Part shown: positions 8,516 through 37,890 of the stretch, piece by piece
Numbering within the stretch: the stretch's first letter is position 1
Layout: every line of letters starts with the position of its first letter
From: Polaromonas sp.
GTDB lineage: Bacteria > Pseudomonadota > Gammaproteobacteria > Burkholderiales > Burkholderiaceae_C
Assembly (NCBI GenBank): GCA_031417995.1
Contig: JANOWR010000093.1
Span: 1,447 to 65,446 of the forward strand
Reading direction: 5' to 3'
DNA: 64,000 nucleotides
The notes under the pieces: model-generated
Databases searched by the model: none
Told to the model about the DNA's origin: nothing
What the model saw: only the letters and a program-made list of their open reading frames with translations
Position numbers and translations under genes: made by a program

Positions 8516-8550
8516 AAACCCCTCATACCCCGCAAAGGTCGGGGGTTTTT
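8516..8550 (+). terminator. Terminator-like hairpin after the HtrA gene
   Basis: AAAACCCC...GGGGTTTT imperfect stem with T-run. Confidence 0.5.
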
Positions 8551-11825: not shown

Positions 11826-11881
11826 CTTTGTCGATGGATGTCGTCAATTGATTCCGCGCATGGTTCAAGCAGGAGAAGCAT

Positions 11882-17958: not shown

Positions 17959-19128
17959 ATGACTGACCACAAGCGCCGTAACCCTGTACTGGCAAGCTTG
18001 TCGGTGCTGATGGTTTTCGCGTTGTACGGCTTGCCGTTTTTACAGATAGCGCCCAACCGTCTTGTGTCTGGGCAACCGGTTTATTTTTTCTCCATCATTC
18101 CTGCCTTGGCCTGTTTGCTACTTGTCGTGCTTGTAGCGTTCGCTGCCGTGGCGATGTTCAAGCCAGCACGAGCTTGGCTTTTTGCTGCGTTGGTGATGTC
18201 TGCTGCGATGTTGCCCAGCCTGCTTTGGCTGGCTGCAAGCCAGGCCAGCATCAGCCTGCAAGGCGCGTTGCCCATTGCAAGAGCTTCATTGGGCAGTGCG
18301 TTCTGGGTAGCACTGGTGCTGCTGGGCTTTATCGTCAGCAGTGCCTTGCAGCAGTTGCGCGCCACAGCGCTTCAAACGGCTGCGGTGTGCTTTGCGCTGC
18401 TGCTGGCATTCGGCGCTTTGCAGTCTGGCAGTGTGTGTGACGATTTGTCGCTGATGAAGGAATACGCCAACCGCGCCGACAGCTTTGCACAAGTTGTTGC
18501 CCGGCATGTGCAGATTATTCTGTTGGCGCTGACGTGTACGCTGATCATCGGTCTGCCACTGGGTTGGGCTGTGCACACGCATGCCAAGCCGGGCAGGGCG
18601 TTGCTGCCCATGCTCAACATCATTCAAACCATTCCGTCGATTGCGCTGTTTGGTTTGTTGATGGCACCGCTTGCTCTTCTGGCTGCCAGTTTTCCAACGT
18701 TAGGACGCGCTGGCATCAGTGGCGTAGGTCTTGCGCCTGCGGTGATTGACTTGACGCTGTATGGCTTGCTGCCTGTGGTGCGCGGCACGCTGGCTGGCTT
18801 GCAGCAGGTGCCCAGTGCCATGGTGCAGGCCGCGCGTGCGCTGGGGTTAACGCGGGTTCAAATATTGATCTCTGTCGAGCTGCCGCTGGCTTTGCCCGTG
18901 CTGCTGGGCGGCGTGCGCACGGCGGCTGTCAGCAGCGTGGGGCTGGCTGCCGTCACGGCGCTGATTGGTGCGGGTGGCCTGGGCAGCATCTTGTTTGAAG
19001 GCTTGTTTGCCAACGCGCAAGACGTGGTGCTGTTGGGCGTATTGCCCATCATTGCGCTGGGGGTGTTGGTTGATGCGTTGTTCAAAGTTCTATTGGCTTT
19101 GGCTCAGCGGCGGGTGCAGCCGTGGTGA
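17959..19128 (+). CDS. yehY: Osmoprotectant ABC permease (YehY-like)
   Basis: [29 protein letters not shown]-loop AARALG. Confidence 0.85.
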
Positions 19129-19847
19129 TGAAGAACCCGTTGATTTGGGTTGCTGCCTTGCTGGTTGCGCTGGTCATGCTGCTGCCGCATTCAGCGCCGC
19201 TGTTCGCCTGGCTGTTTCCCCAGCTTGAGCGCCCGGTGTACACGCAGGAGCCGTTTGCATGGCTGCTCTGGCAGCATGTGCTTCTGGTGGGTGCGTCCAG
19301 TTTGTTTTCGGTTGTGGTAGGCAGTGCCATCGGCATGTGGGTCACGCGCCCGGTGGGGCAGCACTTCAAACCACTCGTTGAAAGTGTGTTGGCCATGAGC
19401 CAGGCTTTCCCGCCCGTGGCGGTGCTGGCCTTGGCTGTGCCCGTGGTCGGCTTTGGTGAGCTGCCCGCGCTGCTGGCCCTGGCGCTGTATGGTTTGCTGC
19501 CCGTAGTGCAGGGCACCGTCAGTGGTTTGCAGGGCGTACCAGCAGCGCAGTGGCAAGCGGCATTGAGCTTGGGGCTCACGCCGCGTGAGTCCGTTCGCTA
19601 CATCGACATACCACTGGCGCTGCCCGTGTGGCTATCGGGTGTGCGAACGTCCGTCATCATCAACATCGGTACAGCGGCCATTGCGTCAACCGTCGGTGCC
19701 AAAACCCTGGGCTCGCCCATCATTGTGGGCCTGAGCGGCTTTAACACCGCCTATGTGTTGCAGGGTGCGATATTGGTGGCCTTGTTGGCGGTGATGGTGG
19801 ACATGCTGTTTGAAAAGCTGGCGCAGCGCGTCGCCTGGCAACATTGA
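19122..19847 (+). CDS. yehW: Osmoprotectant ABC permease (YehW-like)
   Basis: [32 protein letters not shown]. Confidence 0.85.
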
Positions 19848-19850
19848 GAT

Positions 19851-19969
19851 TACTATAAATTTAATAGCTGCTTGCGCCCGAATCGATTGGGCTACAGGCA
19901 TTTTTGATACCTGAAAACGGCGATTTTTGCCTTCAAAAACCTCAATTCAGGTGATTTGCAGATGCGAAA
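19851..19969 (+). repeat. Left copy of 119-bp direct repeat
   Basis: Identical to 29758-29876 except C19918 vs A29825. Confidence 0.95.
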
Positions 19970-20123
19970 AGTGCTTTCAGCCCAATTTTTTGAGCGCAAG
20001 CAGTTTCAGATTTGATCGTCATGACTCTTTGAGTGTCAAGTCTGTGTGCCTGATATTCGCTTGTCGATTTTGTACGTTCAACTTTAGAATGCATCAGGCA
20101 GTCATTGATGCTCAAACCAGACC

Positions 20124-23100
20124 ATGGCCCGGCCTTTACATAAAACCAAAACAGCACCGCTTATGCTGGTGACAGGGACACAAAATCAAGTGGACAACCA
20201 ATTTTTTGAAAAGCCGATTCTCAACGCGCCGTACAGCTACCCGCAGCGCCATTGGGAACTCGACAAAACAGGCCAACCCACACAGCACATCCTTGAAAAG
20301 CGCAGGCCTGCTGAATTCATCACGCCCATCCCCAAACCCAAGAAGCAAAAGGGAGGCGAACAAGAAGCCCTGCTTTTTGATGACAAGCTGTCCACCCAGG
20401 CCCAGCAATACCATTCGGCCATCATCAACTCAGTCCGGGCAGAGGTAGACAAATGGCGCGCCTTGAAGAACCCGAACGACTGGCGTGTCACGCCTGAAAC
20501 TGCGCGCTTGTTACAGCACTGGCGTCATCACAACTTCAGCGGCGTTCGCCCCTTCTTTTGCCAGGTTGAAGCAATTGAAACAGCTATTTGGTTGACCGAA
20601 GTAGCGCCACAAATTGGCAAAACAGGTCAGGTTTTTATTGATCACCTGGCCAGTGCCAATACCGACGCCAATCCAGATTTAATGCGCTTGGCGCTCAAGC
20701 TGGCCACAGGCGCAGGTAAAACCACAGTCATGGCGATGCTGATTGCTTGGCAAACCGTTAACGCCGTACGCAGGCCCAACAGCAAAAAATTCACCCGTGG
20801 TTTCCTGCTGGTCGCGCCTGGCCTCACCATCAAAGACCGCTTGCGCGTCTTGCAACCTAACGACCCCGACAGCTACTTTAAAACTCGTGAACTTGTCCCG
20901 GGCGACATGCTGGGTGATTTGAATCGTGCAGAAATTGTCATTACCAATTACCACGCCTTCAAGCCACGTGAGCGGATGGAGCTGTCCAAGGGCGGCCGTT
21001 TGCTGCTGCAAGGCCGGGGTGGCGACGAACTCAACACCTTAGAGACTGAAGGCCAGATGCTCCAGCGCGTCATGCCTAGCTTAATGGGCCTCGGCAACGT
21101 GCTGGTCATCAATGACGAAGCCCACCATTGCTACCGTGAAAAGCCGGGCGTCAAGCTAGAGGGTGACGACCTCAAAGGCGACGACAAAAAAGAAGCTGAA
21201 CAAAACAACGAGGCGGCACGCTTGTGGATTACAGGTCTGGAGGCCATCAACCGCAAGCTGGGCGTGGCCCGCGTGTTTGATTTGTCTGCCACGCCGTTCT
21301 TCCTGCGCGGCTCAGGTTATGCAGAGGGTACGTTGTTCCCCTGGACGATGAGCGACTTCTCGCTGATGGACGCCATTGAATGCGGCATTGTTAAATTACC
21401 GCGCGTCCCGGTGGCAGACAACATCCCGGGCGGGGAAATGCCCATGTTCCGCAACCTGTGGGAGCACATTCGCGCCAAGATGCCCAAAAAGGGCAGGGGA
21501 AAGGCCGAAGGACTGAATCCCCTGGACTTGCCGACGCAATTACAAACCGCCCTTGAAGCGCTGTACGGCCATTACGAGAAAACCTTCGCCCTGTGGGCCG
21601 AAGAAAAAATATCGGTGCCGCCGTGCTTCATCGTCGTCTGCAACAACACATCAGCATCCAAGCTGGTCTACGACTACATCTCAGGCTTTCAGCAGCCTCA
21701 TATAGATGGCACCAGCAAGCTGATAGAAGGGCGCTTGCCCCTGTTTCGCAACCACGACGAACACGGCAACCAGCTTGGCCGTCCTAAAACACTGTTAATA
21801 GACAGCGAGCAGCTTGAGTCAGGCGAGGCGCTTGACGACAATTTTCGCGGTATGGCAGCAGACGAGATTGAGCGCTTCCGCCGCGAAATCGTCGAGCGTA
21901 CCGGCGACGCGCAAGCCGGCCAAAACATCACTGACCAAGACCTGCTGCGCGAGGTGATGAACACAGTTGGTAAAGCTGGCCGCCTGGGTGACTCCATACG
22001 CTGTGTTGTGTCTGTGTCCATGCTTACTGAGGGCTGGGACACCAACACTGTTACCCACGTTCTGGGTGTGCGGGCTTTTGGCACCCAGTTGCTGTGTGAA
22101 CAAGTCATTGGCCGCGCCCTGCGCCGCCAGTCCTATGAGTTGAATGAGGATGGGCTTTTCAATGTTGAATACGCTGACGTGCTGGGCATCCCGTTTGACT
22201 TCAATGCCAAGCCCGTCGTTGCGCCGCCGCAAAAGCCACGTGAAACCATTCAGGTCAAAGCCGTCAAGCCTGACCGTGATGCGCTTGAAATCCGCTTCCC
22301 GCGCGTACAGGGCTACCGCGCTGAACTGCCTGAAGAGCGCTTGACGGCCGAGTTCAATGACGACTCTGTTTTGACGCTCACGCCCGACCTGGTGGGCGCC
22401 ACTGAAACAAAGCAGTCCGGCATCATTGGCGAAACGGTGGACTTGAACCTCGTTCACACCGGTGACGTGCGCCCGTCGCAAATGGTGTACGAGCTGACCT
22501 CACACCTGGTGCTGTCCAAATACCGTGACGCCAATGGCGAGCCGCAGCTACACCTGTTTGGCCAGCTCAAGCGCATTGCCCGCCAGTGGCTAGACGGCTA
22601 CCTCGTCTGCAAGGGCGGCACCTACCCGGCCCAGCTCAAATACAAAACCCTGGCCGACATGGCTTGCAACCGCATAGAGGCCGGTATTTTGCGCACACTG
22701 GTGGGCAGTCGCCCCATACAAGCCGTGCTTGACCCATACAACCCCACGGGCAGCACCGCGCACGTCAACTTCAACACCTCCAAAACCGAGCGCTGGGAAA
22801 CCAGTGCCAAGCACTGCCAATTGAACTGGGTGATTCTCGACAGCGATTGGGAGGCCGAGTTTTGCCGCGTGGCGGAGGCACACGCAAAGGTCAAGGCCTA
22901 CGTCAAAAACCACAACCTGGGCCTGGAAGTGCCTTACCGCTACGGCTCTGAAATGCGCCAATACCGTCCTGACTTTGTCGTGCGGGTGGACGACGGACAT
23001 GGCGAAGATGATTTGCTGAACCTGGTGGTTGAGATCAAAGGCTTTCGCGGTGAAGACGCCAAGGTTAAAAAGGAAACCATGGACATCTACTGGGTGCCTG

Positions 23101-23243
23101 GCGTCAACAATCTTGGCACGCATGGCCGCTGGGCGTTTGCCGAGTTCACTGACGTTTACCAAATGCAGGACGACTTTGCAAAGAAGGTCGAAGACGTGTT
23201 TAACGCAATGGTTGATGGCTTTGTAAACGGGCAGATCCCATGA
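20124..23243 (+). CDS. Type III-like restriction endonuclease/helicase (Res; resembles BPTD_3080 family)
   Basis: KLATGAGKT Walker A, INDEAHH, EQVIGRALRR, C-terminal PDF...EIKG nuclease motif; true start may be GTG 20190. Confidence 0.88.
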   Translation: MARPLHKTKTAPLMLVTGTQNQVDNQFFEKPILNAPYSYPQRHWELDKTGQPTQHILEKRRPAEFITPIPKPKKQKGGEQEALLFDDKLSTQAQQYHSAIINSVRAEVDKWRALKNPNDWRVTPETARLLQHWRHHNFSGVRPFFCQVEAIETAIWLTEVAPQIGKTGQVFIDHLASANTDANPDLMRLALKLATGAGKTTVMAMLIAWQTVNAVRRPNSKKFTRGFLLVAPGLTIKDRLRVLQPNDPDSYFKTRELVPGDMLGDLNRAEIVITNYHAFKPRERMELSKGGRLLLQGRGGDELNTLETEGQMLQRVMPSLMGLGNVLVINDEAHHCYREKPGVKLEGDDLKGDDKKEAEQNNEAARLWITGLEAINRKLGVARVFDLSATPFFLRGSGYAEGTLFPWTMSDFSLMDAIECGIVKLPRVPVADNIPGGEMPMFRNLWEHIRAKMPKKGRGKAEGLNPLDLPTQLQTALEALYGHYEKTFALWAEEKISVPPCFIVVCNNTSASKLVYDYISGFQQPHIDGTSKLIEGRLPLFRNHDEHGNQLGRPKTLLIDSEQLESGEALDDNFRGMAADEIERFRREIVERTGDAQAGQNITDQDLLREVMNTVGKAGRLGDSIRCVVSVSMLTEGWDTNTVTHVLGVRAFGTQLLCEQVIGRALRRQSYELNEDGLFNVEYADVLGIPFDFNAKPVVAPPQKPRETIQVKAVKPDRDALEIRFPRVQGYRAELPEERLTAEFNDDSVLTLTPDLVGATETKQSGIIGETVDLNLVHTGDVRPSQMVYELTSHLVLSKYRDANGEPQLHLFGQLKRIARQWLDGYLVCKGGTYPAQLKYKTLADMACNRIEAGILRTLVGSRPIQAVLDPYNPTGSTAHVNFNTSKTERWETSAKHCQLNWVILDSDWEAEFCRVAEAHAKVKAYVKNHNLGLEVPYRYGSEMRQYRPDFVVRVDDGHGEDDLLNLVVEIKGFRGEDAKVKKETMDIYWVPGVNNLGTHGRWAFAEFTDVYQMQDDFAKKVEDVFNAMVDGFVNGQIP

Positions 23244-23824
23244 CCGACGTCATCCCCAAACCCGAAAACCTGGCATCACTGGTTTTTGTCATTCGTGGCG
23301 AAAAGGTGTTGCTCGATGCTGATCTGGCCATGCTTTACGGCGTGGAAACCGGTGCTTTGAACCGCGCGGTCAAGCGCAATATTGAACGGTTTCCAGCCGA
23401 CTTCATGCTGAAACTAACCCCAGAAGAATGGGAAGACTTGAAATGCCAAATTGGCATCTCAAGTTCACCTGTTGCCGCAGCCAAGGCCAAGAAGCTTAGG
23501 GTTATGCGGTCACAAGTTGTGACCGCAAGCGCACACGGTGGCCGCCGCGCTATTCCCTACGCCTTTACCGAACAAGGCGTTGCCATGCTCTCTAGCGTTC
23601 TGCGCTCCCAGCGCGCGGTTGAGGTCAACATTGCCATCATGCGCACCTTTGTGCAGTTGCGCCGTCTGATGGACTCCAACCGCGACTTGGCCCGCCGCAT
23701 TGAGGCCATGGAAACCCGCTACGACGAGCAGTTCTCGCAGGTCTTCGACGCCATCAAGCAACTGATTGCTGACGACCAGGACAAAAAGGCCAAGCCCAAG
23801 CGTTCCATCGGCTTTCTCCCATAA
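23240..23824 (+). CDS. ORF6N-domain DNA-binding protein
   Basis: IRGEKVLLDADLAMLYGVET, RFPADFM, YAFTEQGVAMLSSVL, C-terminal KRSIGF. Confidence 0.9.
   Translation: MTDVIPKPENLASLVFVIRGEKVLLDADLAMLYGVETGALNRAVKRNIERFPADFMLKLTPEEWEDLKCQIGISSSPVAAAKAKKLRVMRSQVVTASAHGGRRAIPYAFTEQGVAMLSSVLRSQRAVEVNIAIMRTFVQLRRLMDSNRDLARRIEAMETRYDEQFSQVFDAIKQLIADDQDKKAKPKRSIGFLP
23438..23527. repeat. Two inverted repeats inside ORF6N gene
   Basis: TTGAAATGCCAA-A-TTGGCATCTCAA (23438-23462, one mispair) and TGCGGTCACAA-G-TTGTGACCGCA (23505-23527, perfect). Confidence 0.9.
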
Positions 23825-23845
23825 AAACACATCCCGCAGACCACC

Positions 23846-26623
23846 ATGGCCACCAAACAACCCAAAGCCCCCAAACCAGCGTTAAGCGTAGAAACGCTCA
23901 AACACGACGACGCCACACGCAAAAACATCCCCACCGCTGAATACCAGTCCGTCATGGCCAAGGACGAGCAAAAGCCTGTGCGGGTGGAATATGAAAGACG
24001 CAACAAAGACCTGGACCCGCAACTTGTCTGGCGCGGCAAAGACGAGCAGGACTGGTCCAACCTTATCGTGCAGGCACCGCCGCTGTACATCCAGGAAAAG
24101 GTTCACCCCAAGGTATTGATTGACGATTTGAAGCGTCAGAGCGAGAAGGCGGCTGAGGCGGCAGCGCAGGTTGACCTGTTTGCAGACTTCAACGGCCTGC
24201 CCAACACCGAGGCCAAAACCGAGTTTTACCAGCACGATGCCCATTGGGCAAACCGCATGATCTTGGGTGACTCTTTAAGCGTGATGGCCAGCCTGGCTGA
24301 GCGTGAAGGCCTGCGCGGCAAGGTGCAGTGCATTTATTTTGATCCGCCCTACGGCATCAAATTCAATAGCAATTTTCAATGGAGTACAACGAGTCGCGAC
24401 GTGAAAGACGGTAACGCCGAGCACATCACGCGCGAGCCGGAGCAGGTCAAGGCGTTTCGGGATACCTGGCGCGATGGTATTCATTCATACCTCACCTATT
24501 TGCGTGATCGGCTGACCGTGGCTCGGGATTTATTGACCGATTCGGGGTCGATTTTTGTGCAGATTGGGGACGAGAACGTGCATCGGGTACGGGCGGTGAT
24601 GGATGAGGTTTTTGGGGACGAAAACTTTGTTTCAACCATTGCGTATGCGAAAACTACCGGATTTGCTGGGGATACGCTTTCAAATGTTGCTGACTACATG
24701 GTTTGGTTTGCTAAGAAAAAGGACTTGCTGAAATACCGTGATCTCTACACGGCAAAGCAAGCGGGCGAAGCGGGCGCGACAAAGTATCGAGAAATATCTT
24801 CCATTCAGGCGCTTAGGAACAGTACGCATGAACGGACTCGCCTTGCGACATCAGCTGATTTGACGTCGCAAGGTGCGGCCAGTTCAGTGCAGATGTTTCC
24901 GTTTGCTGGACGCGAATGGTTAGCTCCGAAGGGACTTCATTGGAAAACTACTGTTGAAGGCTTGATTCGTACGGCAAAAGCAGATCGAGTAATGGAAGAG
25001 GGTGCATCCATAAGGTATGTGCGTTGCCTTGATGACTTTTCTGCTACGCCGCGAACTAATCTCTGGCTTGACATCGGCGGCGTACAAAGCAGAACTGATC
25101 CCAAGATTTATGTAGTTCAAACGGCAACCGAGGCTGTGCAACGTTGCGTCCTCATGACGACCGATCCCGGCGATCTCGTCCTAGACCCCACCTGCGGCTC
25201 CGGCACCACAGCCTACGTCGCCGAACAATGGGGCCGCCGCTGGATCACCATCGACACCTCCCGCGTCGCTCTTGCACTCGCCCGCGCCCGCATCATGGGT
25301 GCGCGCTACCCGTTTTATTTACTGGCTGACAGCAAGGAAGGGCAGGTCAAAGAAGCTGAAGTTACCCGTACCGTGCCGGCTAGCGCGCCCACACGCGGCA
25401 ATGTGCGCCAGGGTTTTGTGTATGAGCGGGTGCCGCACATCACGCTCAAGTCCATAGCCAACAATGCCGAGATTGACGTGATTTGGGACAAATACCAGCC
25501 TGCGCTGGAAGCGCTGCGGGTTGAACTGAACAGCGCACTGGGCAAGGCCTGGCAAGAGTGGGAGATTCCCCGCGAGGCGGCTGAACCATGGCCTGCCAAA
25601 GTCAAAAAACTACATACCGACTGGTGGCAGCAGCGGATCAGCCGGCAAAAGGACATTGATGCGTCCATAGCAGCCAAGGCCGAGTTTGAATACCTGTACG
25701 ACAAGCCGTATGACGACAAAAAGAAGGTGCGCGTGGCCGGGCCTTTCACGGTTGAAAGCCTGTCGCCACACCGCGTGCTGGGGGTAGATGAAAACGATGA
25801 ACTCATTGACCCGAACAACCAAAAGTCTGCTGAACGCGCTGCTGAGTACGCCGCAGAACGCAATTTTGTTCAAATCATTCTTGAAAACTTGAAGTCTGCT
25901 GGCGTGCAGCAGGCGCACAAAGACAACAAGATTGACTTCACCTCGCTCACACCGTGGCCTGGCGACCTGGTGTGTGCCGATGGCCGCTATATGGAGGGTG
26001 CTGAAGAGAAGCGTGCCGCCGTCTTTATCGGCCCCGAGTTTGGCACCGTTAGCCGCCCCGACCTGGTAGCTGCTGCACGTGAGGCAGGCGACGCAGGTTT
26101 TGACGTGTTGATTGCCTGCGCATTCAACTACGACGCGCACAGCAGCGAGTTCGACAAGCTGGGCCGCATACCGGTGCTGAAAGCCCGCATGAACGCCGAC
26201 CTGCACATGGCCGAAGACCTGAAGAACACCGGCAAAGGCAACCTGTTCGTGATCTTTGGCGAACCAGACATCGACATTCTTGAAGCTGAAGACGGCCAGG
26301 TGCGCGTCAAGGTCAATGGCGTAGACGTCTTTCACCCTAACACAGGAAAAGTACAAAGCGACGGCGCCGACGGCATTGCCTGCTGGTTCATAGACACCGA
26401 CTACAACGAAGAAAGCTTTTTCGTCCGCCAAGCCTACTTCCTGGGCGCCAACGACCCGTACAAAGCGCTGAAAACCACGCTGAAGGCAGAGATAAACGAA
26501 GAAGCATGGGCCACGCTAAACAGCGATACGTCACGGCCATTCGACAAGCCGAAGTCGGGGCGGATTGCGGTGAAGGTTATCAATCATCTTGGGGATGAGG
26601 TTATGAAAGTGTTTAAGGTATGA
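23846..26623 (+). CDS. Adenine DNA methyltransferase (type III Mod-like)
   Basis: YFDPPYG motif IV before VLDPTCGSGTT motif I (beta order); long C-terminal extension. Confidence 0.92.
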   Translation: MATKQPKAPKPALSVETLKHDDATRKNIPTAEYQSVMAKDEQKPVRVEYERRNKDLDPQLVWRGKDEQDWSNLIVQAPPLYIQEKVHPKVLIDDLKRQSEKAAEAAAQVDLFADFNGLPNTEAKTEFYQHDAHWANRMILGDSLSVMASLAEREGLRGKVQCIYFDPPYGIKFNSNFQWSTTSRDVKDGNAEHITREPEQVKAFRDTWRDGIHSYLTYLRDRLTVARDLLTDSGSIFVQIGDENVHRVRAVMDEVFGDENFVSTIAYAKTTGFAGDTLSNVADYMVWFAKKKDLLKYRDLYTAKQAGEAGATKYREISSIQALRNSTHERTRLATSADLTSQGAASSVQMFPFAGREWLAPKGLHWKTTVEGLIRTAKADRVMEEGASIRYVRCLDDFSATPRTNLWLDIGGVQSRTDPKIYVVQTATEAVQRCVLMTTDPGDLVLDPTCGSGTTAYVAEQWGRRWITIDTSRVALALARARIMGARYPFYLLADSKEGQVKEAEVTRTVPASAPTRGNVRQGFVYERVPHITLKSIANNAEIDVIWDKYQPALEALRVELNSALGKAWQEWEIPREAAEPWPAKVKKLHTDWWQQRISRQKDIDASIAAKAEFEYLYDKPYDDKKKVRVAGPFTVESLSPHRVLGVDENDELIDPNNQKSAERAAEYAAERNFVQIILENLKSAGVQQAHKDNKIDFTSLTPWPGDLVCADGRYMEGAEEKRAAVFIGPEFGTVSRPDLVAAAREAGDAGFDVLIACAFNYDAHSSEFDKLGRIPVLKARMNADLHMAEDLKNTGKGNLFVIFGEPDIDILEAEDGQVRVKVNGVDVFHPNTGKVQSDGADGIACWFIDTDYNEESFFVRQAYFLGANDPYKALKTTLKAEINEEAWATLNSDTSRPFDKPKSGRIAVKVINHLGDEVMKVFKV

Positions 26624-27006
26624 ACAATCAATCGACAACAAAACCCACCGTATTTATTGCATCACCGTATACCCGTGGCGATCCCGCAATTAATACGCAC
26701 TTTCAATGCGCGATGTTTGATCGTCTGTTGACTGACGGAAGGGTGCTTCCAGTAGCCCCACTCTGGACACATTTTCAGCACTTATTGTTCCCCAGACCGT
26801 ATGCCGATTGGCTCGCGTACGATCAAGCGATGCTAAGACTCTATGACTGCTGCCTGCGTCTGGATGCTACTCACACAGCAACTGGCTACAACGAATCGAT
26901 TTCATCCGGCGCTGATGCTGAAGTTGATACATTTCGGCGGATGGGCAAGCCCGTATTTTTTTCGGTGGATAGTCTCTATGCTTGGGTCGAACAAATTCAG
27001 GAGTAG
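26620..27006 (+). CDS. DUF4406/nucleoside 2-deoxyribosyltransferase-like protein
   Basis: VFIASPYT N-terminus, W..YD..ML...D and S.GA..E....R.MGKPVF pattern; ATGA coupling to mod; family call from motif recall only. Confidence 0.6.
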   Translation: MNNQSTTKPTVFIASPYTRGDPAINTHFQCAMFDRLLTDGRVLPVAPLWTHFQHLLFPRPYADWLAYDQAMLRLYDCCLRLDATHTATGYNESISSGADAEVDTFRRMGKPVFFSVDSLYAWVEQIQE

Positions 27007-27008
27007 TG

Positions 27009-27620
27009 ATGCAAAACAAGCGGATGGAGAATTCAATACGGAGTCTGGTTAATCTGTATACGGTTGTAATTGGTGCTGCGCTTTCACTAGCTGTTGCTGG
27101 GGCAATAGACATAAATAAAGGGTTGTCATCGCTCAGCGTCACTTCGATACTCCTGTTCGTAGCTTTTATAGCCACGCTCTTTCCTTTCTTTCATGGAGCG
27201 TTGCGGCACCTAGATGACGCGTATCTAGAAAATCAAAATCCTTCCATGAAGACTTCAGCATTGATTGTTGATTTCGCGCTTCTTTTTCTACATGCGTTGG
27301 CCTTCTTGGTGCTTTCGCAATTGTTGAAACGCCCTGCGGATTTTGCGTGGTTTTTGATTGCGGTTCTTATGATTGATGTGGTGTGGGGCATATTCATGCA
27401 TCTTGCTTCGCCTGCAAAAGACAAATGGTCTGCGGAGTCGCGCTGGACAACTATCAATTTCTTTTTTATTGCAGTCGGTCTGTTGTATTTGATTGACCAA
27501 GAAATTTATCTTGGTGCGGTAGTCCTGACATCTAAGCTGGCCTGGCTTTTAGCTATCGGCTGCGTAACGCGATCAACTGTTGACTACATCTGGTGTCGTG
27601 ACCTTTACTTTCCGAAGTGA
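27009..27620 (+). CDS. Uncharacterised multi-pass membrane protein (about 6 TM)
   Basis: Repeated hydrophobic helices; visibly more AT-rich than neighbours; 2-bp gap to upstream gene. Confidence 0.75.
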   Translation: MQNKRMENSIRSLVNLYTVVIGAALSLAVAGAIDINKGLSSLSVTSILLFVAFIATLFPFFHGALRHLDDAYLENQNPSMKTSALIVDFALLFLHALAFLVLSQLLKRPADFAWFLIAVLMIDVVWGIFMHLASPAKDKWSAESRWTTINFFFIAVGLLYLIDQEIYLGAVVLTSKLAWLLAIGCVTRSTVDYIWCRDLYFPK

Positions 27621-27632
27621 CTAAAGTGCCAA

Positions 27633-29756
27633 ATGGACTTCCGCATCTCCGACACCTTCACCGATAGCCTTGCCAAGTTAACCGGCGACGAGCAAAAGCT
27701 CGTCAAAACCACCGCCTTTGACTTGCAAATGAACCCGGTTAATCCGCGCATGAGTTTGCACAAGCTGGACAAGGCGAAAGACAAAAACTTTTGGTCAGCC
27801 CGTGTTGGCAGTGACATTCGGCTGATATTGCATAAAACAGCCACCAGTCTGCTGCTTTGTTATGTAGACCACCACGACAAGGCTTACAGCTGGGCTGAAC
27901 GGCGTAAGCTGCAAACGCACCCCACCACGGGTGCTGCGCAATGGGTTGAGATTCGTGAACGGGTAGAAGACGCTGCACCCGCCTGGCCGCATGTGGCGGC
28001 TGAGCCTGCGCCCAAGCCGTGGATGTTTGCACCACCCGCCACAGCCAAACAATTGCTGTTTGCCCAGCGTACAGACGCAGAACTGCTGGGCTATGGCGTG
28101 CCTGCGGAGTGGCTGGCCGATGTGCGTGCTGCCGATGAAGATGGCTTGATGGCCCTGACTGACCACCTGCCCAAAGAAGCTGCAGAAGCTTTGCTGGAGC
28201 TGGCTACTGGCGGCACGCCGGCCCTGCCGCTGGTAGCAGCCGCAAATGCCAACCCGTTTGACCACCCCGATGCACAGCGCCGCTTCAGGGTCATGCACGA
28301 TGTGGACGAGCTGGAGCGGGCGCTGTCAGCCCCGTGGGAAAAGTGGGTTACCTTTTTGCATCCGGCCCAGCGTGAATTTGTAGAGCGCGACTACAGCGGC
28401 CCGGCGCGTGTGTCTGGTTCTGCAGGTACGGGCAAAACTATTGTGGCCCTGCACCGTGCGGTTTTTTTGGCGCGCAAGCACCCTGACAGCAGGGTGCTGC
28501 TGGCGACATTTTCAGAGCCGCTGGCCAGTGCATTGCACCAAAAGCTGCGTTTGTTGATCAGCGGTACGCCCAGGCTGGCAGAGCGGCTGGAGGTGCAGTC
28601 TGTTACCGGTATCGGTGAAAGGCTTTACAGCGCGAAAGTAGGGCGATTGAAGTTGGCGTCTAGCCAAGCCGTCGCGCTTGCCTTGCGCCAAGCGCTTGCG
28701 CAGACCGCATCAACTGTGACGCCCCCACTAACGCTGGCCTTTGTTGAATCAGAGTGGCGTGACCTGATAGATGAGTGGCAGGTAGAAAACTGGGAGGCTT
28801 ACCGTACGCTGGTGCGCCTTGGTCGTAAAACGACGTTGCCAGAAAACCGACGCGCCGCTGTCTGGGCCGTGGTTGAGCATGCACGGGCACAGTTGGCGGC
28901 TCTTGGCTTGGTAACGCACGCACAAATGTTCAGCCAACTGGCCAGGCACTTTGAAAGCGCGACAAGTTCGCCATTCGATTTTATTGTGGTGGACGAGGCG
29001 CAGGACGTTTCAGTGGCGCAGCTCAAGTTTTTGGCTGCGCTGGGCTCGCAGGCTGGCCAACCCAAGGCAAACAGCCTGTTTTTTGCAGGCGATTTGGGGC
29101 AGCGAATCTTTCAGTTGCCTTTCTCATGGAAGGCTTTGGGGGTAGATGTACGGGGCCGTGCCCGTACGCTAACCATCAATTACCGTACCTCGCATCAGAT
29201 TCGGGCTCAGGCAGACCGTTTGCTGGATGCCGAGGTGGCGGACGTGGACGGAAATGTGGAAACGCGCAAAGGCACGGTTTCTGTTTTTAACGGGCAACAG
29301 CCACTGATTCAGATTTTTGAAAACGAAACCAAAGAGGCTGCTGGCGTTGCTGAGTGGCTAAAGCGCCATAGCCAGCAAGGTGTGCGAGCTTTTGAGATGG
29401 CCGTTTTTGTTCGCTCAGAAGCACAGCTTGATCGTGCTAAAGATGCGGTGGGTGCTGCGGGGCTTGACTTTTGTGTTCTGGACGACAAGGTCAGGCCAGA
29501 AGAGACCAAGGTGTCGATTTGCACCATGCATCTGGCAAAAGGCCTGGAATTCCGTGTCGTGGTCGTTATGGCTTGCGATGATGAAGTAGTGCCATTGCAA
29601 AGCCGCATTGCAAACATCGTTGACAGCGCTGATTTACAAGAGGTGTACAACACAGAACGGCACCTGCTGTACGTGGCGTGTACGCGCGCCAGAGATGCGT
29701 TGCTGGTGACGGCAACCGAGCCAGCGTCAGAATTTCTAGATGATTTGGTGAAATAG
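27633..29756 (+). CDS. UvrD/Rep-like SF1 helicase with N-terminal RelE/ParE-like domain
   Basis: GSAGTGKT, VDEAQD, NYRT, TMHLAKGLEF, YVACTRAR; N-terminal ~90 aa with WSARV...IRLI...YVDHHD.AY. Confidence 0.85.
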   Translation: MDFRISDTFTDSLAKLTGDEQKLVKTTAFDLQMNPVNPRMSLHKLDKAKDKNFWSARVGSDIRLILHKTATSLLLCYVDHHDKAYSWAERRKLQTHPTTGAAQWVEIRERVEDAAPAWPHVAAEPAPKPWMFAPPATAKQLLFAQRTDAELLGYGVPAEWLADVRAADEDGLMALTDHLPKEAAEALLELATGGTPALPLVAAANANPFDHPDAQRRFRVMHDVDELERALSAPWEKWVTFLHPAQREFVERDYSGPARVSGSAGTGKTIVALHRAVFLARKHPDSRVLLATFSEPLASALHQKLRLLISGTPRLAERLEVQSVTGIGERLYSAKVGRLKLASSQAVALALRQALAQTASTVTPPLTLAFVESEWRDLIDEWQVENWEAYRTLVRLGRKTTLPENRRAAVWAVVEHARAQLAALGLVTHAQMFSQLARHFESATSSPFDFIVVDEAQDVSVAQLKFLAALGSQAGQPKANSLFFAGDLGQRIFQLPFSWKALGVDVRGRARTLTINYRTSHQIRAQADRLLDAEVADVDGNVETRKGTVSVFNGQQPLIQIFENETKEAAGVAEWLKRHSQQGVRAFEMAVFVRSEAQLDRAKDAVGAAGLDFCVLDDKVRPEETKVSICTMHLAKGLEFRVVVVMACDDEVVPLQSRIANIVDSADLQEVYNTERHLLYVACTRARDALLVTATEPASEFLDDLVK

Positions 29757-29757
29757 A

Positions 29758-29876
29758 TACTATAAATTTAATAGCTGCTTGCGCCCGAATCGATTGGGCT
29801 ACAGGCATTTTTGATACCTGAAAAAGGCGATTTTTGCCTTCAAAAACCTCAATTCAGGTGATTTGCAGATGCGAAA
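29758..29876 (+). repeat. Right copy of 119-bp direct repeat
   Basis: 118/119 identical to 19851-19969. Confidence 0.95.
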
Positions 29877-29927
29877 GCACCTTTGACCCAAGTCGCGGTA
29901 TGCTGCATTTTTTAACCGGAGCCACTC

Positions 29928-30818
29928 ATGCAACTCAAAACTGCACAAGACTTTGACCAGGAACTGTTGATTTTGTTTGACGCCTACGTGCACGGCACGA
30001 TTGACCGCCGGGGCTTTTTAGACCGCGCACAAAAGTTTGCTGTGGGCGGCATGACAGCTGCCGGGCTGCTCGCCGCCCTGAGTCCCGACTTTGCCCGGGC
30101 CCAGGTCGTGCCCAAGGACGACAAACGCATCACCACTGAAATGCTTGACTACCCTTCAACGGCGGGTAACGGCACCGTCAAGGGCTACCTGGCCAAGCCC
30201 GCCAACATGACTGGCAAGCTGCCGGTGGTGCTGGTGATTCATGAAAACCGTGGCCTGAACCCACACATTGAAGACATCACCCGCCGCCTGGCGCTTGATA
30301 ATTTTGTGGCCTTTGCGCCTGACGCGCTGACCCCACTGGGCGGCTACCCCGGCGACGAAGACAAGGCACGCGAACAGTTTGCCAAGCTTGACCAGACCAA
30401 GGCGGCAGCAGACTTTGTAGCTGCTGCCAATTATTTAAAAAACCGGCCTGAGTCCAACGGCAAGCTGGGTGCCGTCGGTTTTTGCTATGGCGGCGGCATT
30501 GTGCACATGCTGTCTACCCGCATGCCCGAGCTGAATGCCGGCGTGCCGTTTTATGGCAACCACCCAGTCGCAACTGAAGCAGTCAAAGTCAAGGCGCCGC
30601 TGCTGATTCATTTTGCGGGTGTTGACGAACGCATCAACGCGGCCTGGCCCGCCTACGAGGCCGCTTTAAAAGCAGCCGGGGCCAACTACATCGCCCACCA
30701 GTACGCGGGTACCCAGCACGGCTTTAACAACGACACCACGCCACGCTTTGATGCGGCGGCAGCCAAGCTGGCCTGGGGCCGCACGCTGGAGTTTTTCAAT
30801 AAAACACTGCGAACCTGA
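29928..30818 (+). CDS. Dienelactone hydrolase family protein (YghX-like)
   Basis: DRRGFL Tat-like leader, IHENRGLNPHIED, GFCYGG, HGFNNDTT. Confidence 0.9.
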   Translation: MQLKTAQDFDQELLILFDAYVHGTIDRRGFLDRAQKFAVGGMTAAGLLAALSPDFARAQVVPKDDKRITTEMLDYPSTAGNGTVKGYLAKPANMTGKLPVVLVIHENRGLNPHIEDITRRLALDNFVAFAPDALTPLGGYPGDEDKAREQFAKLDQTKAAADFVAAANYLKNRPESNGKLGAVGFCYGGGIVHMLSTRMPELNAGVPFYGNHPVATEAVKVKAPLLIHFAGVDERINAAWPAYEAALKAAGANYIAHQYAGTQHGFNNDTTPRFDAAAAKLAWGRTLEFFNKTLRT

Positions 30819-30826
30819 ATCGTTGG

Positions 30827-31213
30827 TTAACCACCTGCCCGCTTGACGATGTAGCTTTGCTTTTGCAGGGCCGCCATGACAGTTGCCACATGGTCGCCTT
30901 GCACTTCAATCACGCCATCTTTGGCCGTGCCGCCTGAGCCGCAGGCCGTGCGCAGCTGCTTGCCCAGCGCGGCCAGTGCCAGGGCATCCAGCGGCAAGCC
31001 CTTGACAAGCGTTACGCTCTTACCGCCACGGCCCTTGGTTTCGCGTGACACGCGCACCACACCATCGGTTTTAGGCAGCGCCTGTACTTTGCAAATGCAG
31101 GCGGCCACGGCCTGGCGGCAGTCTGGGCACATGCGGCCTGTGTCGGTGGAGTAAACCAGGCCGCCCAGACCCGCCAGGCCACCAAAGCCAGTATTTGTTT
31201 GCTTATTTTTCAT
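30827..31213 (-). CDS. yciH: Translation initiation factor SUI1/YciH family
   Basis: LVYSTD, RETKGRGGKSVT, CGSGGTAKDGVIEVQGDH. Confidence 0.9.
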   Translation of the reverse strand: MKNKQTNTGFGGLAGLGGLVYSTDTGRMCPDCRQAVAACICKVQALPKTDGVVRVSRETKGRGGKSVTLVKGLPLDALALAALGKQLRTACGSGGTAKDGVIEVQGDHVATVMAALQKQSYIVKRAGG

Positions 31214-31268
31214 CAGATGTCATCAGGCTTTCGGGTTGTGTATTCTGACGCATGCAAAATCAACGTAC

Positions 31269-31862
31269 ATGACTGAACACCTCCCCACCCCCGACAAAGA
31301 GCAAATCAACCTGCTCGAAACCTTTGACCGCCTGGGCCTTGCCCAGATTGCGCTGGTGTCCACCCCCGAGCAAGCCGCCGCTGCACTACAGGCACTGCAA
31401 AGCGAAAGTGCGCTGGGCTTTGACACCGAATCAAAACCCACCTTTGCCAAAAACGAAGCCTCAACCGGGCCGCACATCGTTCAGTTGTCAACGCTGCACA
31501 AAGCCTGGATTTTTCAGCTTGAAGACGCGGCGTGCCGCAGCGCGGTGGGCGAACTGCTGGAGTCACCCGGCATCATCAAGGCGGGTTTTGGCCTGGGTGA
31601 TGACAAAAAACGCATCACCTACAAGCTCGGCGTTGACCTGCAAGGCGTGCTTGATTTGAACGCCGTGTTTCGCGAAAAAGGTTACCGCAAAGACATGGGT
31701 GTGCGCGGCGCTGTGGCGGTGATGTTCAACAAACGCTTTATCAAGTCTAAAAAAGCCAGCACCTCCAACTGGGCCAACACCCGGCTGACAGAAGCGCAAA
31801 TCATTTACGCCGCCAACGATGCCTATGCCGCCATGCGGGTGTATGCCGCGCTGGAGATTTAA
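31269..31862 (+). CDS. DEDDy 3'-5' exonuclease
   Basis: GFDTESKP, QLST, YAANDAY. Confidence 0.88.
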   Translation: MTEHLPTPDKEQINLLETFDRLGLAQIALVSTPEQAAAALQALQSESALGFDTESKPTFAKNEASTGPHIVQLSTLHKAWIFQLEDAACRSAVGELLESPGIIKAGFGLGDDKKRITYKLGVDLQGVLDLNAVFREKGYRKDMGVRGAVAVMFNKRFIKSKKASTSNWANTRLTEAQIIYAANDAYAAMRVYAALEI

Positions 31863-31932
31863 AAGCAGGGTTGGCAATGCTGCGCCGGGTCGTTAACATG
31901 TTTCCCTGCACATACAAGTCGCTGCCGCCATC

Positions 31933-33171
31933 ATGACTCAGCCGTCCATGCCCAAAAGTCCAGACCGCCAGGTTGGCATCACGCTCGCTGTCATTCAGCT
32001 TTTCTTCACCCTGACCTGGACGGTGTACGTCATCTTTTTGCCGCAACTGGCAGCGCAGGTGGGTTTGGCCAAAGACATGGTGCTGGTGATTTTGATGATG
32101 GACCAGCTGATTTTTTTGGTGGCTGATACCGCCATGGGGGTGATGGCTGACAAAGCAGCACGCGTGTTTGGCAAGCTGGGCCGCTGGGTGGTGCTGCTGA
32201 CGCTGGCATCTTGCGCAGCCTTTTTGCTGTTGCCTTGGGTAGCTTCAACCGGGCCGCAGGCGCAGTGGCTGTTTCTGGCGCTGACAGTTGTATGGTCAGT
32301 CACATCATCTGCATTGCGCGCGCCGCCTCTGGTGCTGCTGGGCAAGTATGCGGCATTGTCAGCTGTTCCCCGCTTGGCCAGTGTGTCGTTGATTGGCCTG
32401 GGCATTGCGGGGGCGATGGCACCTTACCTCACGGTGGCCTTGCGCGGTATTGACCCGCGCTGGCCGTTTGCTTTGTCCAGTCTGTCATTGGTGCTGGTCA
32501 CATTTGGTATTGTGTGGGCAGAGCGCGCGTTAAAAAACGGCGCTGTAGCAGCCAGTAAAACTGTGCCCGAGCAAACGAGAGATTTTGCAAGCAAGCCGCC
32601 CATGGCCCCGTTTCTGGCTGCCATGGCTTTGCTGGGCATGGGTTTTCAAATTCATTCGTCACTTAATTCTGCGCCGCAGTATTTGCGCTTTGTCAAGCCT
32701 GCTGATCTTGAATTTTTACTCCCGGTTTTCTGGGTTGGCTTTAGCGTGCTGATGCTGGTTGCCAGCCGATTGACTGCACGTTACGGCGGCTTGCTGGTGA
32801 TGGGCGTGGCCGGGTGTGTGGGGGCACTGGCCACTTATGCGGCCACCCTTGCTGGCACGCTTGAACTCTTGATGGCCGCACAGTTTGCAGCGGGTGGTGC
32901 CTGGGGTGTTTTGATGATGAGTGCGTATGCCAGCGCGCTGCTGATAGGCCGCACCGGGCGTGAAGGGCTGGTGACGGGCACCATGTTTTCACTGCTCGCG
33001 CTGGCCGCGTTTGCGCGCATGGCACTGGTGGCGGCACAGCTGAACAAGGATGCACAGTTTGCAGTGCTTCTGACCTGGCTGCCCACTGCCGCGTGGCTGG
33101 CTGCCGGGGCGCTGTTGATGGCGATGGGCTGGCTGTTGCGCGGCCCGCGCTTGCAGCGCATTAAAATTTGA
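31933..33171 (+). CDS. MFS-type transporter
   Basis: About 12 hydrophobic helices, G.MAD motif-A-like loop. Confidence 0.75.
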   Translation: MTQPSMPKSPDRQVGITLAVIQLFFTLTWTVYVIFLPQLAAQVGLAKDMVLVILMMDQLIFLVADTAMGVMADKAARVFGKLGRWVVLLTLASCAAFLLLPWVASTGPQAQWLFLALTVVWSVTSSALRAPPLVLLGKYAALSAVPRLASVSLIGLGIAGAMAPYLTVALRGIDPRWPFALSSLSLVLVTFGIVWAERALKNGAVAASKTVPEQTRDFASKPPMAPFLAAMALLGMGFQIHSSLNSAPQYLRFVKPADLEFLLPVFWVGFSVLMLVASRLTARYGGLLVMGVAGCVGALATYAATLAGTLELLMAAQFAAGGAWGVLMMSAYASALLIGRTGREGLVTGTMFSLLALAAFARMALVAAQLNKDAQFAVLLTWLPTAAWLAAGALLMAMGWLLRGPRLQRIKI

Positions 33172-33199
33172 CCTTCATTTCTTTATTGGGGACCTTTTC

Positions 33200-33841
33200 A
33201 TGCTCACACTCTGCGGCTTTCCTGTCTCAAATTACTACAACAAAGTCAAACTCGCCCTGCTCGAAAAAAACATACCTTTTGCTGAAGAGTTTGTCACGCC
33301 CAAGACTGTCGATGCCGCAGCGCTTGCTGCTTCACCCCTTGGCAAAATTCCGTTCATTCGTACGCCGCAGGGCACGCTGTGCGAGAGCCAGGCCATTCTT
33401 GACTACCTTGAATCGGCCTACCCCACGCCCTCGCTTTTACCAACTGATGCATATGCAGCAGCCAAGGTGCGGGAGTTGATCACCTACATCGACCTGCACG
33501 TAGAACTGGTGGCACGCGAGCTGTATGCGCAAGCGTTTTTTGGCGGTGTGGTGAGTGAAGGCACCCAGGCGCGGGTGCGCAAACAGCTTGAGAAAAACAT
33601 CGCTGCGCTCAAGTCACTCATCAAGTTTGCGCCTTACGCAGCAGGGGACATGTTTACCCAGGCCGACTGTGCCGCGTTTGCTTCATTGCCGTTGGTGGGC
33701 ATGGCGACCAAGGCGATTTATGGTGAAGACCTGCTTTTGACAGGCGGCGTGGACTACAAGGCTTACATCAAAATGATTGGCGAGCGGCCAAGCGCACAAA
33801 AAGTACTGGCAGACCGTAAGGCGACTACCGCAAAACCATAA
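33200..33841 (+). CDS. Glutathione S-transferase
   Basis: SNYYNKV, SPLGKIPF, ESQAILDYL, FTQAD. Confidence 0.9.
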   Translation: MLTLCGFPVSNYYNKVKLALLEKNIPFAEEFVTPKTVDAAALAASPLGKIPFIRTPQGTLCESQAILDYLESAYPTPSLLPTDAYAAAKVRELITYIDLHVELVARELYAQAFFGGVVSEGTQARVRKQLEKNIAALKSLIKFAPYAAGDMFTQADCAAFASLPLVGMATKAIYGEDLLLTGGVDYKAYIKMIGERPSAQKVLADRKATTAKP

Positions 33842-33867
33842 CGACGTCTGCATGGCATCAATAATTA

Positions 33868-33935
33868 GCTATTAAAAAAATAGCTGCTTGCACCCGAATC
33901 TATTGGGCTACAAGCTTAAAAAGCATCTGAAAAAT
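33868..33935 (+). repeat. Dispersed repeat copy between convergent GST and dusA
   Basis: GCTATTAAAAAAATAGCTGCTTGCACCCGAATCTATTGGGCTACAAGC. Confidence 0.88.
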
Positions 33936-33977
33936 GCCTTTTTTGCTGTTTTTATAGCTTTTTTTGGATGAATGAGC

Positions 33978-35003: not shown

Positions 35004-35118
35004 ACGGGTATTTTCCCAGATACAGGAACGCGCGAGCTTCGTCGTCCCCCGGTCATCATCAGCCGCTATCGTCCGACAGCCAACAACAGCATTTGCTGAT
35101 GGCCTCAAGGAGCAGGCC

Positions 35119-35559: not shown

Positions 35560-35618
35560 ACGCATCTGCCTTTCGGTAACATGGCCGCAGACCATGTTCG
35601 CCTTTTAAGGATTTGCTG

Positions 35619-36960: not shown

Positions 36961-36963
36961 GGG

Positions 36964-37755: not shown

Positions 37756-37890
37756 AATGGTTCCCTATGTGTAGGCCAACTTGCTATGCGTGATACGCCA
37801 TGTATCCATATTAATACTTTGCATCACAATCACAGCGCTTGTTACCAGCGGTTTCAACTGCTGCATGCAGGCTTTGCGAGGGTGCTGCCC

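What the first reader, a model, noticed from the sequence alone, without database searches (positions are those of the whole stretch)
19851..29876. Defence island bounded by 119-bp near-perfect direct repeats with no integrase
Seen: 19851-19969 and 29758-29876 differ at 1 of 119 nt, whereas other copies of the same repeat family share only ~60-70 nt with many mismatches. Each copy starts within 4 nt of an upstream stop codon (yehW; helicase). No recombinase gene lies between them. Inference: the island entered, or can be lost, by recombination at the dispersed repeat. That would make the repeat family a landing pad for defence cargo and might allow ON/OFF loss of the RM system in the population.
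Basis: partly seen in the sequence, partly recalled or inferred. Interest (0 to 1): 0.65.

Follow-up and report, generated by a model that had tools for sequence, protein, structure and literature searches.

The report
Restriction island flanked by duplicated target
A 9.8-kb restriction-modification island in a Polaromonas genome sits between two near-identical 119-bp copies of the local intergenic repeat; this is a new example of the known but unexplained "insertion with long target duplication" of restriction systems, not evidence that the repeat family is a landing pad.

Summary
Window 19851-19969 and 29758-29876 match at 118 of 119 nt. Among 566 loci of this repeat family in the genome, this is the only pair at least 90% identical over at least 100 nt. 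No recombinase gene lies between the copies.

The cargo is a BPTD_3080-family (Type III-like) Res/Mod pair, a UvrD-like helicase, an ORF6N gene and two small genes.

- Seven related Polaromonas species have yehW, a single repeat, then a serA-like gene (window 37890 onward). None has the predicted yehW-repeat-DLH site. The DLH block lies elsewhere in the three of them where it was found.
- The right copy is a duplicate of the yehW-linked element, not an independent family member.
- A homologous island in another Polaromonas species (G080) has a 105-bp duplication of a non-repeat target. A clean empty site exists in species G014.

[quoted passage not shown] A second lineage (L019) shares the right junction but has a diverged repeat, so the near-identity probably reflects gene conversion between the copies. 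Loss by repeat recombination is plausible but not observed. Verdict: new member of a known kind.

The parts
19122..19847 (+). yehW-like ABC permease, left flank
   Evidence: Pfam BPD_transp_1. It is colinear with relatives at 80-84% nt identity.
19851..19969 (+). Left 119-bp copy: left inverted-repeat arm plus central part of the resident REPIN/MITE-like element
   Evidence: It is orthologous to the single yehW-linked element of G190 and G016, including a locus-specific 13-nt 5' signature shared with G190.
19970..20010 (+). Right inverted-repeat arm that completes the left element into a hairpin; first bases of the insert
   Evidence: It pairs with 19868-19905: DNA fold -30.5 kcal/mol, z -4.1. 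It matches the right arm of the family consensus. It is absent after yehW in 7 relatives.
20124..23243 (+). Res: BPTD_3080-family restriction endonuclease (ResIII helicase domain plus C-terminal endonuclease)
   Evidence: NCBIfam NF046055, 1365.6 bits against a cut-off of 800. Pfam ResIII and RE_endonuc.
23240..23824 (+). ORF6N-domain protein, a variable accessory gene
   Evidence: Pfam PF10543 and PADLOC PDC-S05. It is present in only 7 of 159 homologous loci.
23846..26623 (+). Mod: N6/N4 DNA methyltransferase of Type III kind
   Evidence: PADLOC PDLC03632 MTase_III, 1457.6 bits; Pfam N6_N4_Mtase.
26620..27006 (+). Small accessory protein, nucleoside 2-deoxyribosyltransferase-like
   Evidence: PHROG 355, E 3.5e-8. 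Weak Pfam DUF7768 hit.
26982..27620 (+). Small accessory protein with no family match, in the lower-GC part of the island
   Evidence: No hits. GC is 0.47-0.48 here against 0.55-0.60 around it. It is identical in L019.
27633..29756 (+). UvrD/GajB-like SF1 helicase, third conserved gene of the module
   Evidence: Pfam UvrD-helicase and UvrD_C. It co-occurs with res and mod in 66 of 159 homologous loci, many of the rest being cut contigs.
29758..29876 (+). Right 119-bp copy: a duplicate of the yehW-linked element, without a right arm
   Evidence: The fold is not better than shuffles, z -1.5. The sequence upstream of DLH in G016 has no family element.
29877..37889 (.). Housekeeping block (DLH, SUI1, exonuclease, MFS, GSTs, DUF2726) that is also extra at this locus compared with relatives
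   Evidence: Relatives join the yehW repeat directly to window 37890 and beyond. The block lies elsewhere in the order A-B-C'.

Best explanation
An integrase-free restriction-modification gene complex (BPTD_3080-family Res, Type III-like Mod, a UvrD-like helicase and accessory genes) was inserted just downstream of yehW. The insertion duplicated about 119 bp of the target, which here is the locus's own REPIN/MITE-like element. [quoted passage not shown] The molecular mechanism of that class is unknown; widely staggered breaks or a one-homology circle have been proposed. The insertion is not recent: the same right junction exists in a second, diverged lineage. The present 118/119 identity is therefore best explained by later gene conversion between the two copies. 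The two copies are also a substrate for RecA-dependent deletion of the island, which would be a one-way loss. Shown: the duplication, its uniqueness, the absence of the island from the yehW locus of related species, the sister case with an empty site, and the shared derived changes. Inferred: the insertion mode, gene conversion and deletability.
For: 1. The pair is unique among 566 family loci.
2. The right copy carries the yehW-locus-specific 5' signature and central region. The sequence upstream of DLH in G016 has no family element. So the right copy is a copy of the left one, not a resident family member.
3. Seven related species lack the island at this locus and have a single element after yehW.
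4. There is no recombinase in or near the island.
5. A homologous island in Polaromonas G080 (L028) is flanked by a 105-bp duplication (100/105). This sequence occurs once at the colinear empty site of G014 (96/105 and 95/105).
6. Further homologous islands carry target-derived direct repeats of 29-56 nt without an integrase between them.
7. Furuta et al. 2010 (PMC2853133) define exactly this class for RM Types I-IV: R and M genes, under 20 kb, repeats over 30 bp, no mobility genes. Their examples include Acidovorax and Burkholderia, and they note that the repeats often span start or stop sites.
8. L019 shares the junctions but differs at 17-18 positions of the repeat. At 6 of these, both window copies share a state that L019 and both outgroups lack.
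Against: 1. No genome with the exact empty site (yehW - repeat - DLH) was found. The DLH block is itself displaced compared with relatives, so the order of events is inferred.
2. The island's first 40 nt are a right inverted-repeat arm that completes the resident half-element into a hairpin. Plain target duplication does not predict this, and it hints at involvement of the repeat element.
3. L019's genome bin is otherwise only 72-78% identical to the window, so the contig may be misbinned or transferred. Its left junction is unknown.
4. The duplicated sequence belongs to a high-copy family, a situation that Furuta et al. deliberately screened out.
5. Read-level support was not available.
Confidence: 0.55

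Rival explanations
1. Campbell-type entry. A circle carrying the island plus one copy of the repeat integrated by a single homologous crossover at the chromosomal repeat. The reverse reaction excises it.
For: This reproduces the layout exactly: resident left arm and centre, then right arm and island, then a second left arm and centre. The copies demonstrably recombine. The RM family also occurs on plasmids, including conjugative ones.
Against: The circle would need a copy of this very locus's element, because other family members are at most about 88% identical over at most 80 nt. So this explains spread between close kin, not the origin. The sister island in G080 duplicated a unique coding target, which a circle could not have carried beforehand. 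No circle or empty junction was seen.
Confidence: 0.2
2. Site-specific or hairpin-specific recombination in trans. A REP-associated Y1 transposase (RAYT-like) or another host enzyme cuts at the ends of the repeat element and mobilises cargo lying between elements.
For: The duplication begins within 1-2 nt of the family element's left end. The island begins with a right arm that completes a hairpin. The genome has one Y1_Tnp gene, with a family element about 140 nt upstream.
Against: There is no other cargo-bracketing pair among 566 loci. The homologous G080 island has no family element at its ends. IS200/IS605-type reactions do not duplicate 119 bp.
Confidence: 0.1
3. Chance insertion between two pre-existing family members that were later homogenised by gene conversion.
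For: The family is dense, about one element per 6 kb, and elements often follow stop codons. Gene conversion is indicated.
Against: Already in L019 the right copy has the yehW-specific 5' signature. The best full-length match of L019's copy in the genome is the yehW element. G016 has no element upstream of DLH.
Confidence: 0.07
4. Assembly artefact: the island was joined to this locus, or a copy was duplicated, by the assembler at a repeat.
For: The genome is a 184-contig draft, apparently assembled from short reads, and read support could not be checked.
Against: The repeat (119 nt) is shorter than the inferred k of 141. The copies differ at one base. An independent assembly has the same right junction. 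Similarity ends sharply at both ends of each copy.
Confidence: 0.03

Closest known systems
[quoted passage not shown] 2000, Gene 259:99; Furuta, Abe and Kobayashi 2010, NAR 38:2428, PMC2853133)
   Same: R and M genes in an insert under 20 kb. No integrase or transposase. Flanking direct repeats well over 30 bp derived from the target. Repeats abut a stop or start codon. The sister island has a matching single-copy empty site.
   Different: The duplicated target is a member of a high-copy hairpin repeat family. The insert starts with the element's missing arm. No exact empty site was found for the window itself. The module carries a conserved UvrD-like helicase and accessory genes.
BPTD_3080-family Type III-like restriction-modification systems (NCBIfam NF046055)
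   Same: Res scores 1365.6 bits as an equivalog. It is paired with a large Type III-class Mod. The family occurs on chromosomes and plasmids across phyla.
   Different: This concerns only the cargo. The family description says nothing about how the genes move.
REPIN/RAYT systems and bacterial MITEs (for example Correia elements). MITEs are reported for Polaromonas JS666 by Mattes et al. 2008, as cited in PMC10969869; that paper was not readable here.
   Same: Hundreds of intergenic copies. Arms of about 36 nt in inverted orientation that fold into a long hairpin. A single Y1 transposase gene in the genome.
   Different: No sign of recent transposition: apart from this pair, no two copies are at least 90% identical over 100 nt. 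Only a half-element was duplicated here. Identity with the JS666 MITEs was not checked.
Complex class 1 integrons with ISCR1, and IS26 translocatable units
   Same: Cargo is bracketed by two direct copies of one sequence, as produced when a circle integrates by recombination at that sequence.
   Different: No ISCR or IS26-type transposase is present, and the repeat is non-coding and 119 bp long.

Membership tests
[quoted passage not shown] | The insert contains both R and M gene homologues | tested here: met
   Res is NF046055. Mod is PDLC03632 / N6_N4_Mtase.
[quoted passage not shown] | The insert is shorter than 20 kb | tested here: met
   There are 9,788 nt between the copies (19970-29757), with a period of 9,907 nt.
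[quoted passage not shown] | Flanking direct duplication longer than 30 bp | tested here: met
   119 bp, 118 identical.
[quoted passage not shown] | No mobility gene in or beside the unit | tested here: met
   No integrase, transposase or resolvase was found by Pfam among the main ORFs from the yehW operon's permease genes (17959) to 40190, nor by four libraries inside the island.
[quoted passage not shown] | The repeat is present once at an empty site in a related genome with both flanks aligned | tested here: inconclusive
   Seven relatives have the left flank plus a single element, but a different right flank. The feature is met in full for the homologous island of G080 against G014.
[quoted passage not shown] | The repeat is not simply a high-copy dispersed repeat (chance insertion between repeats excluded) | tested here: inconclusive
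   The sequence belongs to a 566-locus family, but the 119-nt version is locus-specific and unique.
Genomic island integrated by a site-specific recombinase | An integrase gene within or next to the island, with an att core at a tRNA or gene end | tested here: not met
   No integrase was found and there is no tRNA in the window.
REPIN/MITE-like repeat family (the duplicated element) | Terminal inverted arms able to form a hairpin, and many dispersed copies | tested here: met
   The family consensus has inverted arms of about 36 nt. The left element folds with z -4.1. There are 566 loci.
REPIN/MITE-like repeat family (the duplicated element) | A cognate single-copy RAYT flanked by the repeats, or a transposase with matching ends | tested here: inconclusive
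   There is one Y1_Tnp match (48 bits) with a family element on one side only.
BPTD_3080-family Type III-like RM system | Res above the curated equivalog cut-off, with an adjacent Type III-class Mod | tested here: met
   1365.6 bits against 800. Mod scores 1457.6 bits to PADLOC MTase_III.
BPTD_3080-family Type III-like RM system | Restriction and methylation activity | not testable with these tools
   This needs methylome or phage-plating data.

The most novel reading that the evidence does not exclude
The Res-Mod-helicase module is a self-mobilising, integrase-free element. Its own nuclease and helicase (or host processing of hairpin repeats) would create widely spaced staggered breaks, so that it inserts with target duplications of 30 to 120 bp. 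The flanking copies would then keep recombining. The Polaromonas set offers several independent insertions of one RM family, one of them with a clean empty site. That would make the mechanism of 'insertion with long target duplication', open since 2000, directly testable.
Probability: 0.12. Interest if true: 0.75.

Novelty: new member of a known kind. Interest (0 to 1): 0.35.

Why it matters
RM systems flanked by long target duplications, with no mobility genes, have been catalogued since 2000, yet how they insert is still unknown. Here one RM family shows this pattern repeatedly within one genus, at different targets. One case has a verified empty site, and one has evidence that the flanking copies keep exchanging sequence. 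This gives a compact comparative set for studying that mechanism. It also cautions against reading near-identical flanking repeats as proof of recent entry or of a dedicated landing-pad repeat. For annotation, the island is an ordinary horizontally acquired Type III-like RM module.

Tried and rejected
- Exact-protein look-ups: yehW, DLH and the helicase found no same-species contigs. L019's helicase is on record only on its own 3.6-kb contig.
- Metagenome scan with Res: the best hit was 83% aa identity, so no close kin.
- Genus-wide DNA search of 204 species: nothing above about 84% identity at yehW, so there is no same-species comparison.
- Rfam: no hit in the window.
- Promoter and terminator scans at both copies: nothing above chance.
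- Conserved island ends: the left ends of the window and G080 islands share only a weak 13-of-15 match with indels at the junction. The right ends both fall within about 30 nt of the helicase C-terminus. This is not enough to claim defined termini.
- attC/integron reading: rejected, because there is no integron integrase and the repeats are dispersed.
- Recent MITE transposition of the element: rejected. Only a half-element is copied, the family shows no other recent copies, and the copy pre-dates the L019/window split.
- Original site of the DLH block: G190 lacks clear orthologues of the block, so the original site could not be traced.
- Mattes et al. 2008 (Polaromonas JS666 MITEs): not held in the library.
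Full report
**1. Observation**

Window 19851-19969 and 29758-29876 align without gaps, with one mismatch in 119 nt. Similarity ends abruptly on both sides. The left copy begins 3 nt after the stop of a yehW-like permease gene. The right copy begins 1 nt after the stop of a helicase gene.

The sequence belongs to a dispersed family. Iterated nhmmer gives 715 hits that merge into 566 loci in the 3.63-Mb, 184-contig genome. An all-against-all comparison of these loci finds exactly one pair at least 90% identical over at least 100 nt, and it is this pair. A whole-genome self-comparison finds only one other same-contig direct repeat of at least 50 nt at 93% or more.

**2. Is it an assembly artefact?**

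Three points argue against an artefact.
- About 20 listed contig ends overlap other contigs by exactly 141 nt at 100%. This is the signature of a de Bruijn assembly with k=141. A 119-nt repeat is shorter than k, so each copy had to be spanned with its flanks (inference).
- The two copies differ at one base.
- An independently assembled contig from another sample (L019, 3,568 nt, labelled Polaromonas sp.) is colinear with window 26577-30143. It has the same helicase-repeat-DLH junction.

**3. The cargo**

The 9,788 nt between the copies hold six co-oriented genes.
- Res: NCBIfam NF046055 'BPTD_3080 family restriction endonuclease', 1365.6 bits against a cut-off of 800, with ResIII and endonuclease domains.
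- An ORF6N-domain gene.
- A 925-aa Type III-class Mod methyltransferase (PADLOC MTase_III, 1457.6 bits).
- A small nucleoside-deoxyribosyltransferase-like protein.
- A protein with no family match.
- A 707-aa UvrD/GajB-like helicase.

No integrase, transposase or resolvase was found in the genes, in the larger antisense ORFs, or among the main ORFs tested between 17959 and 40190. The window has no tRNA.

Across 159 homologous loci from genomes and metagenomes, res, mod and the helicase are the conserved core, at 60-83% aa identity across many phyla. ORF6N and the two small genes are variable. The Res family also occurs on plasmids, some conjugative.

**4. The repeat element**

The family consensus has arms of about 36 nt in inverted orientation around a variable centre. 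The left element, taken as 19848-20015, folds into one long hairpin in which 19868-19905 pairs with 19970-20005 (-30.5 kcal/mol, z -4.1). The 119-nt repeat is therefore the left arm plus the centre. The right arm (19970-20010) follows only the left copy. The right copy does not fold better than shuffled sequence.

The genome has a single Y1_Tnp (RAYT-like) gene, with a family element upstream. The family thus looks REPIN/MITE-like. It shows no sign of recent spread.

**5. Relatives**

The genus is Polaromonas: G080, which is Polaromonas sp. UBA5171, is listed as 'same genus'. None of the 204 species genomes searched exceeds about 84% nt identity at yehW.

In G190, G016, G022 and G004, yehW and a single copy of the element are followed directly by the homologue of window 37890-40290, a serA-like dehydrogenase and an aminotransferase. 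G043, G100 and G213 are similar, but the join is to about 39066. In all seven the element lacks the right arm.

The whole of 19970-37889 is therefore extra in the window. It consists of the island, the second repeat copy, and a block of housekeeping genes (DLH, SUI1, an exonuclease, MFS, GSTs). In G016, G022 and G004 that block lies on other contigs in the order A-B-C', whereas the window has B-C-A.

It may have existed as an intermediate, but the adjacency to DLH is itself derived.

**6. The right copy is a duplicate of the left**

The right copy shares with G190's yehW-linked element a locus-specific 13-nt 5' signature that other family members lack. It also shares the same central region. 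The DLH upstream region of G016 contains no family element. This rejects 'chance insertion between two resident repeats'.

**7. A sister case with an empty site**

Among 78 homologous loci with res, mod and helicase, five show direct repeats bracketing the module. In Polaromonas G080 (L028) a degraded island is flanked by 105-nt direct repeats (100/105). There, Res residue 338 is fused to Mod residue 842, followed by an AAA ATPase and the helicase. The repeats are not the hairpin family. They are the 5' end of a DUF1345 gene.

Species G014 has the colinear empty site with one copy, 96/105 and 95/105 identical to the two G080 copies. That is a textbook insertion with a 105-bp target duplication and no mobility gene.

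Other loci show related patterns.
- L144: a 52-nt repeat made of tRNA-Leu sequence, with no integrase between the copies.
- L136: a 56-nt repeat at 84% identity.
- G150: a perfect 29-nt repeat that appears to lie in coding sequence.
- L089: a classical 46-nt repeat of the 3' end of a tRNA-Arg, with copies 21 kb apart.

In both the window and G080 the island ends within about 30 nt of the helicase C-terminus.

**8. What is known**

Furuta, Abe and Kobayashi (2010, PMC2853133), following Nobusato et al. (2000), defined 'insertion with long target duplication' for RM systems of Types I-IV. The criteria are R and M genes, an insert under 20 kb, flanking repeats over 30 bp (up to more than 400 bp), no other mobile element, and the repeat single at an empty site. 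Their examples include Acidovorax and Burkholderia. They note that the repeats often span translation start or stop sites. They state that the mechanism is unknown, possibly linked to double-strand breakage. They also note that such repeats allow amplification.

The window meets every criterion except a clean empty site. The G080 island meets them all. I therefore file the finding as a new member of this known kind.

**9. Age and the near-identity**

L019 and the window form a mosaic.

| Window stretch | Differences from L019 |
|---|---|
| 26577-27976 | 1 |
| 27977-29576 (helicase) | about 12%, and 25% at four-fold sites |
| 29577-29776 | 2 |
| 29777-29876 (centre of the repeat) | 18 |
| 29877-30143 | about 3% |

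The junctions are the same to the nucleotide in both. At the 17 repeat positions where L019 differs from the window pair, the outgroup elements (G190, G016) agree with the window at 9-10 and with L019 at 6. So six derived changes are present in both window copies. The simplest reading is that the duplication pre-dates the split of these alleles, and that the window's copies were later homogenised by gene conversion. Independent insertion at identical nucleotides is less parsimonious.

There is a caveat. The genome bin that holds L019 is otherwise only 72-78% identical to the window. The contig may be misbinned or transferred, and its left junction is unknown.

**10.

Exchange between the copies shows that they are recombination-proficient. 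Deletion of the island, leaving one copy, is therefore plausible from established knowledge of RecA-dependent recombination between direct repeats of about 100 bp. It was not observed, it would be irreversible, and the contig shows no branch at the repeat. The idea that the repeat family is a landing pad for defence cargo is not supported (sections 1 and 7).

**11. Unexplained**

The island's first 40 nt are the missing right arm, which turns the resident half-element into a full hairpin. This is what a Campbell-type crossover with a circle carrying a complete element would give. That would need the circle's element to match this locus, so it explains spread among close kin rather than origin. 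It keeps alive a role for the hairpin element or a Y1 enzyme. The circular permutation of the DLH block also remains unexplained.

**12. Verdict**

This is a new member of a known kind, of moderate interest. Its main value is as a comparative set for an old open mechanism.

Noticed in passing
window 29877-37889: This housekeeping block (DLH, SUI1, exonuclease, MFS, two GSTs, DUF2726) has the order B-C-A here, against A-B-C' on other contigs in G016, G022 and G004. That is a circular permutation plus an inversion of C. A family repeat lies at 33868-33937 between C and A. No repeat lies at the A/D joint (37719-37889).
   Followed up: partly
window 27977-29576 versus L019: Allelic mosaic in the helicase gene. 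A 1.6-kb tract is about 12% diverged (25% at four-fold sites), between stretches that are identical or nearly so. This indicates homologous exchange of helicase alleles between lineages.
   Followed up: partly
L212 (G096:C333) 11819-11907 and 12531-12616: An ORF6N gene between res and mod is itself flanked by an 89-nt direct duplication (89% identical) of the 5' end of mod. It looks like a gene-sized insertion with long target duplication inside an RM operon.
   Followed up: no
L219 (G190:C55) 9947-12217; window 41353-42301: In G190, three full-length repeat elements of about 240 nt alternate with two ORF6N-domain genes in a cassette-like tandem array downstream of the serA-like pair. The window has one such unit at the same place.
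   Followed up: no
L028 (G080:C115) 7526-8731: The G080 island carries a dead RM. Res residue 338 is fused to Mod residue 842, an internal deletion of about 4.6 kb relative to the window's island. The helicase and an AAA ATPase stay intact, and the helicase ORF reads through into the flanking duplication.
   Followed up: partly
G000:C119:41736-42062 (L221): The single Y1_Tnp (IS200/IS605-type, RAYT-like) gene of the genome has a family repeat about 140 nt upstream. It is a candidate cognate enzyme of the 566-locus repeat family.
   Followed up: partly
whole assembly G000: About 20 listed contig ends overlap another contig by exactly 141 nt at 100%. The draft could be scaffolded further, and the assembler's largest k was probably 141.
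   Followed up: no
window 26500-27600: The two small accessory genes sit in a GC dip (0.47-0.48 against 0.55-0.60). They are 100% identical in L019 while the neighbouring helicase is diverged. This suggests a recently exchanged accessory module.
   Followed up: no
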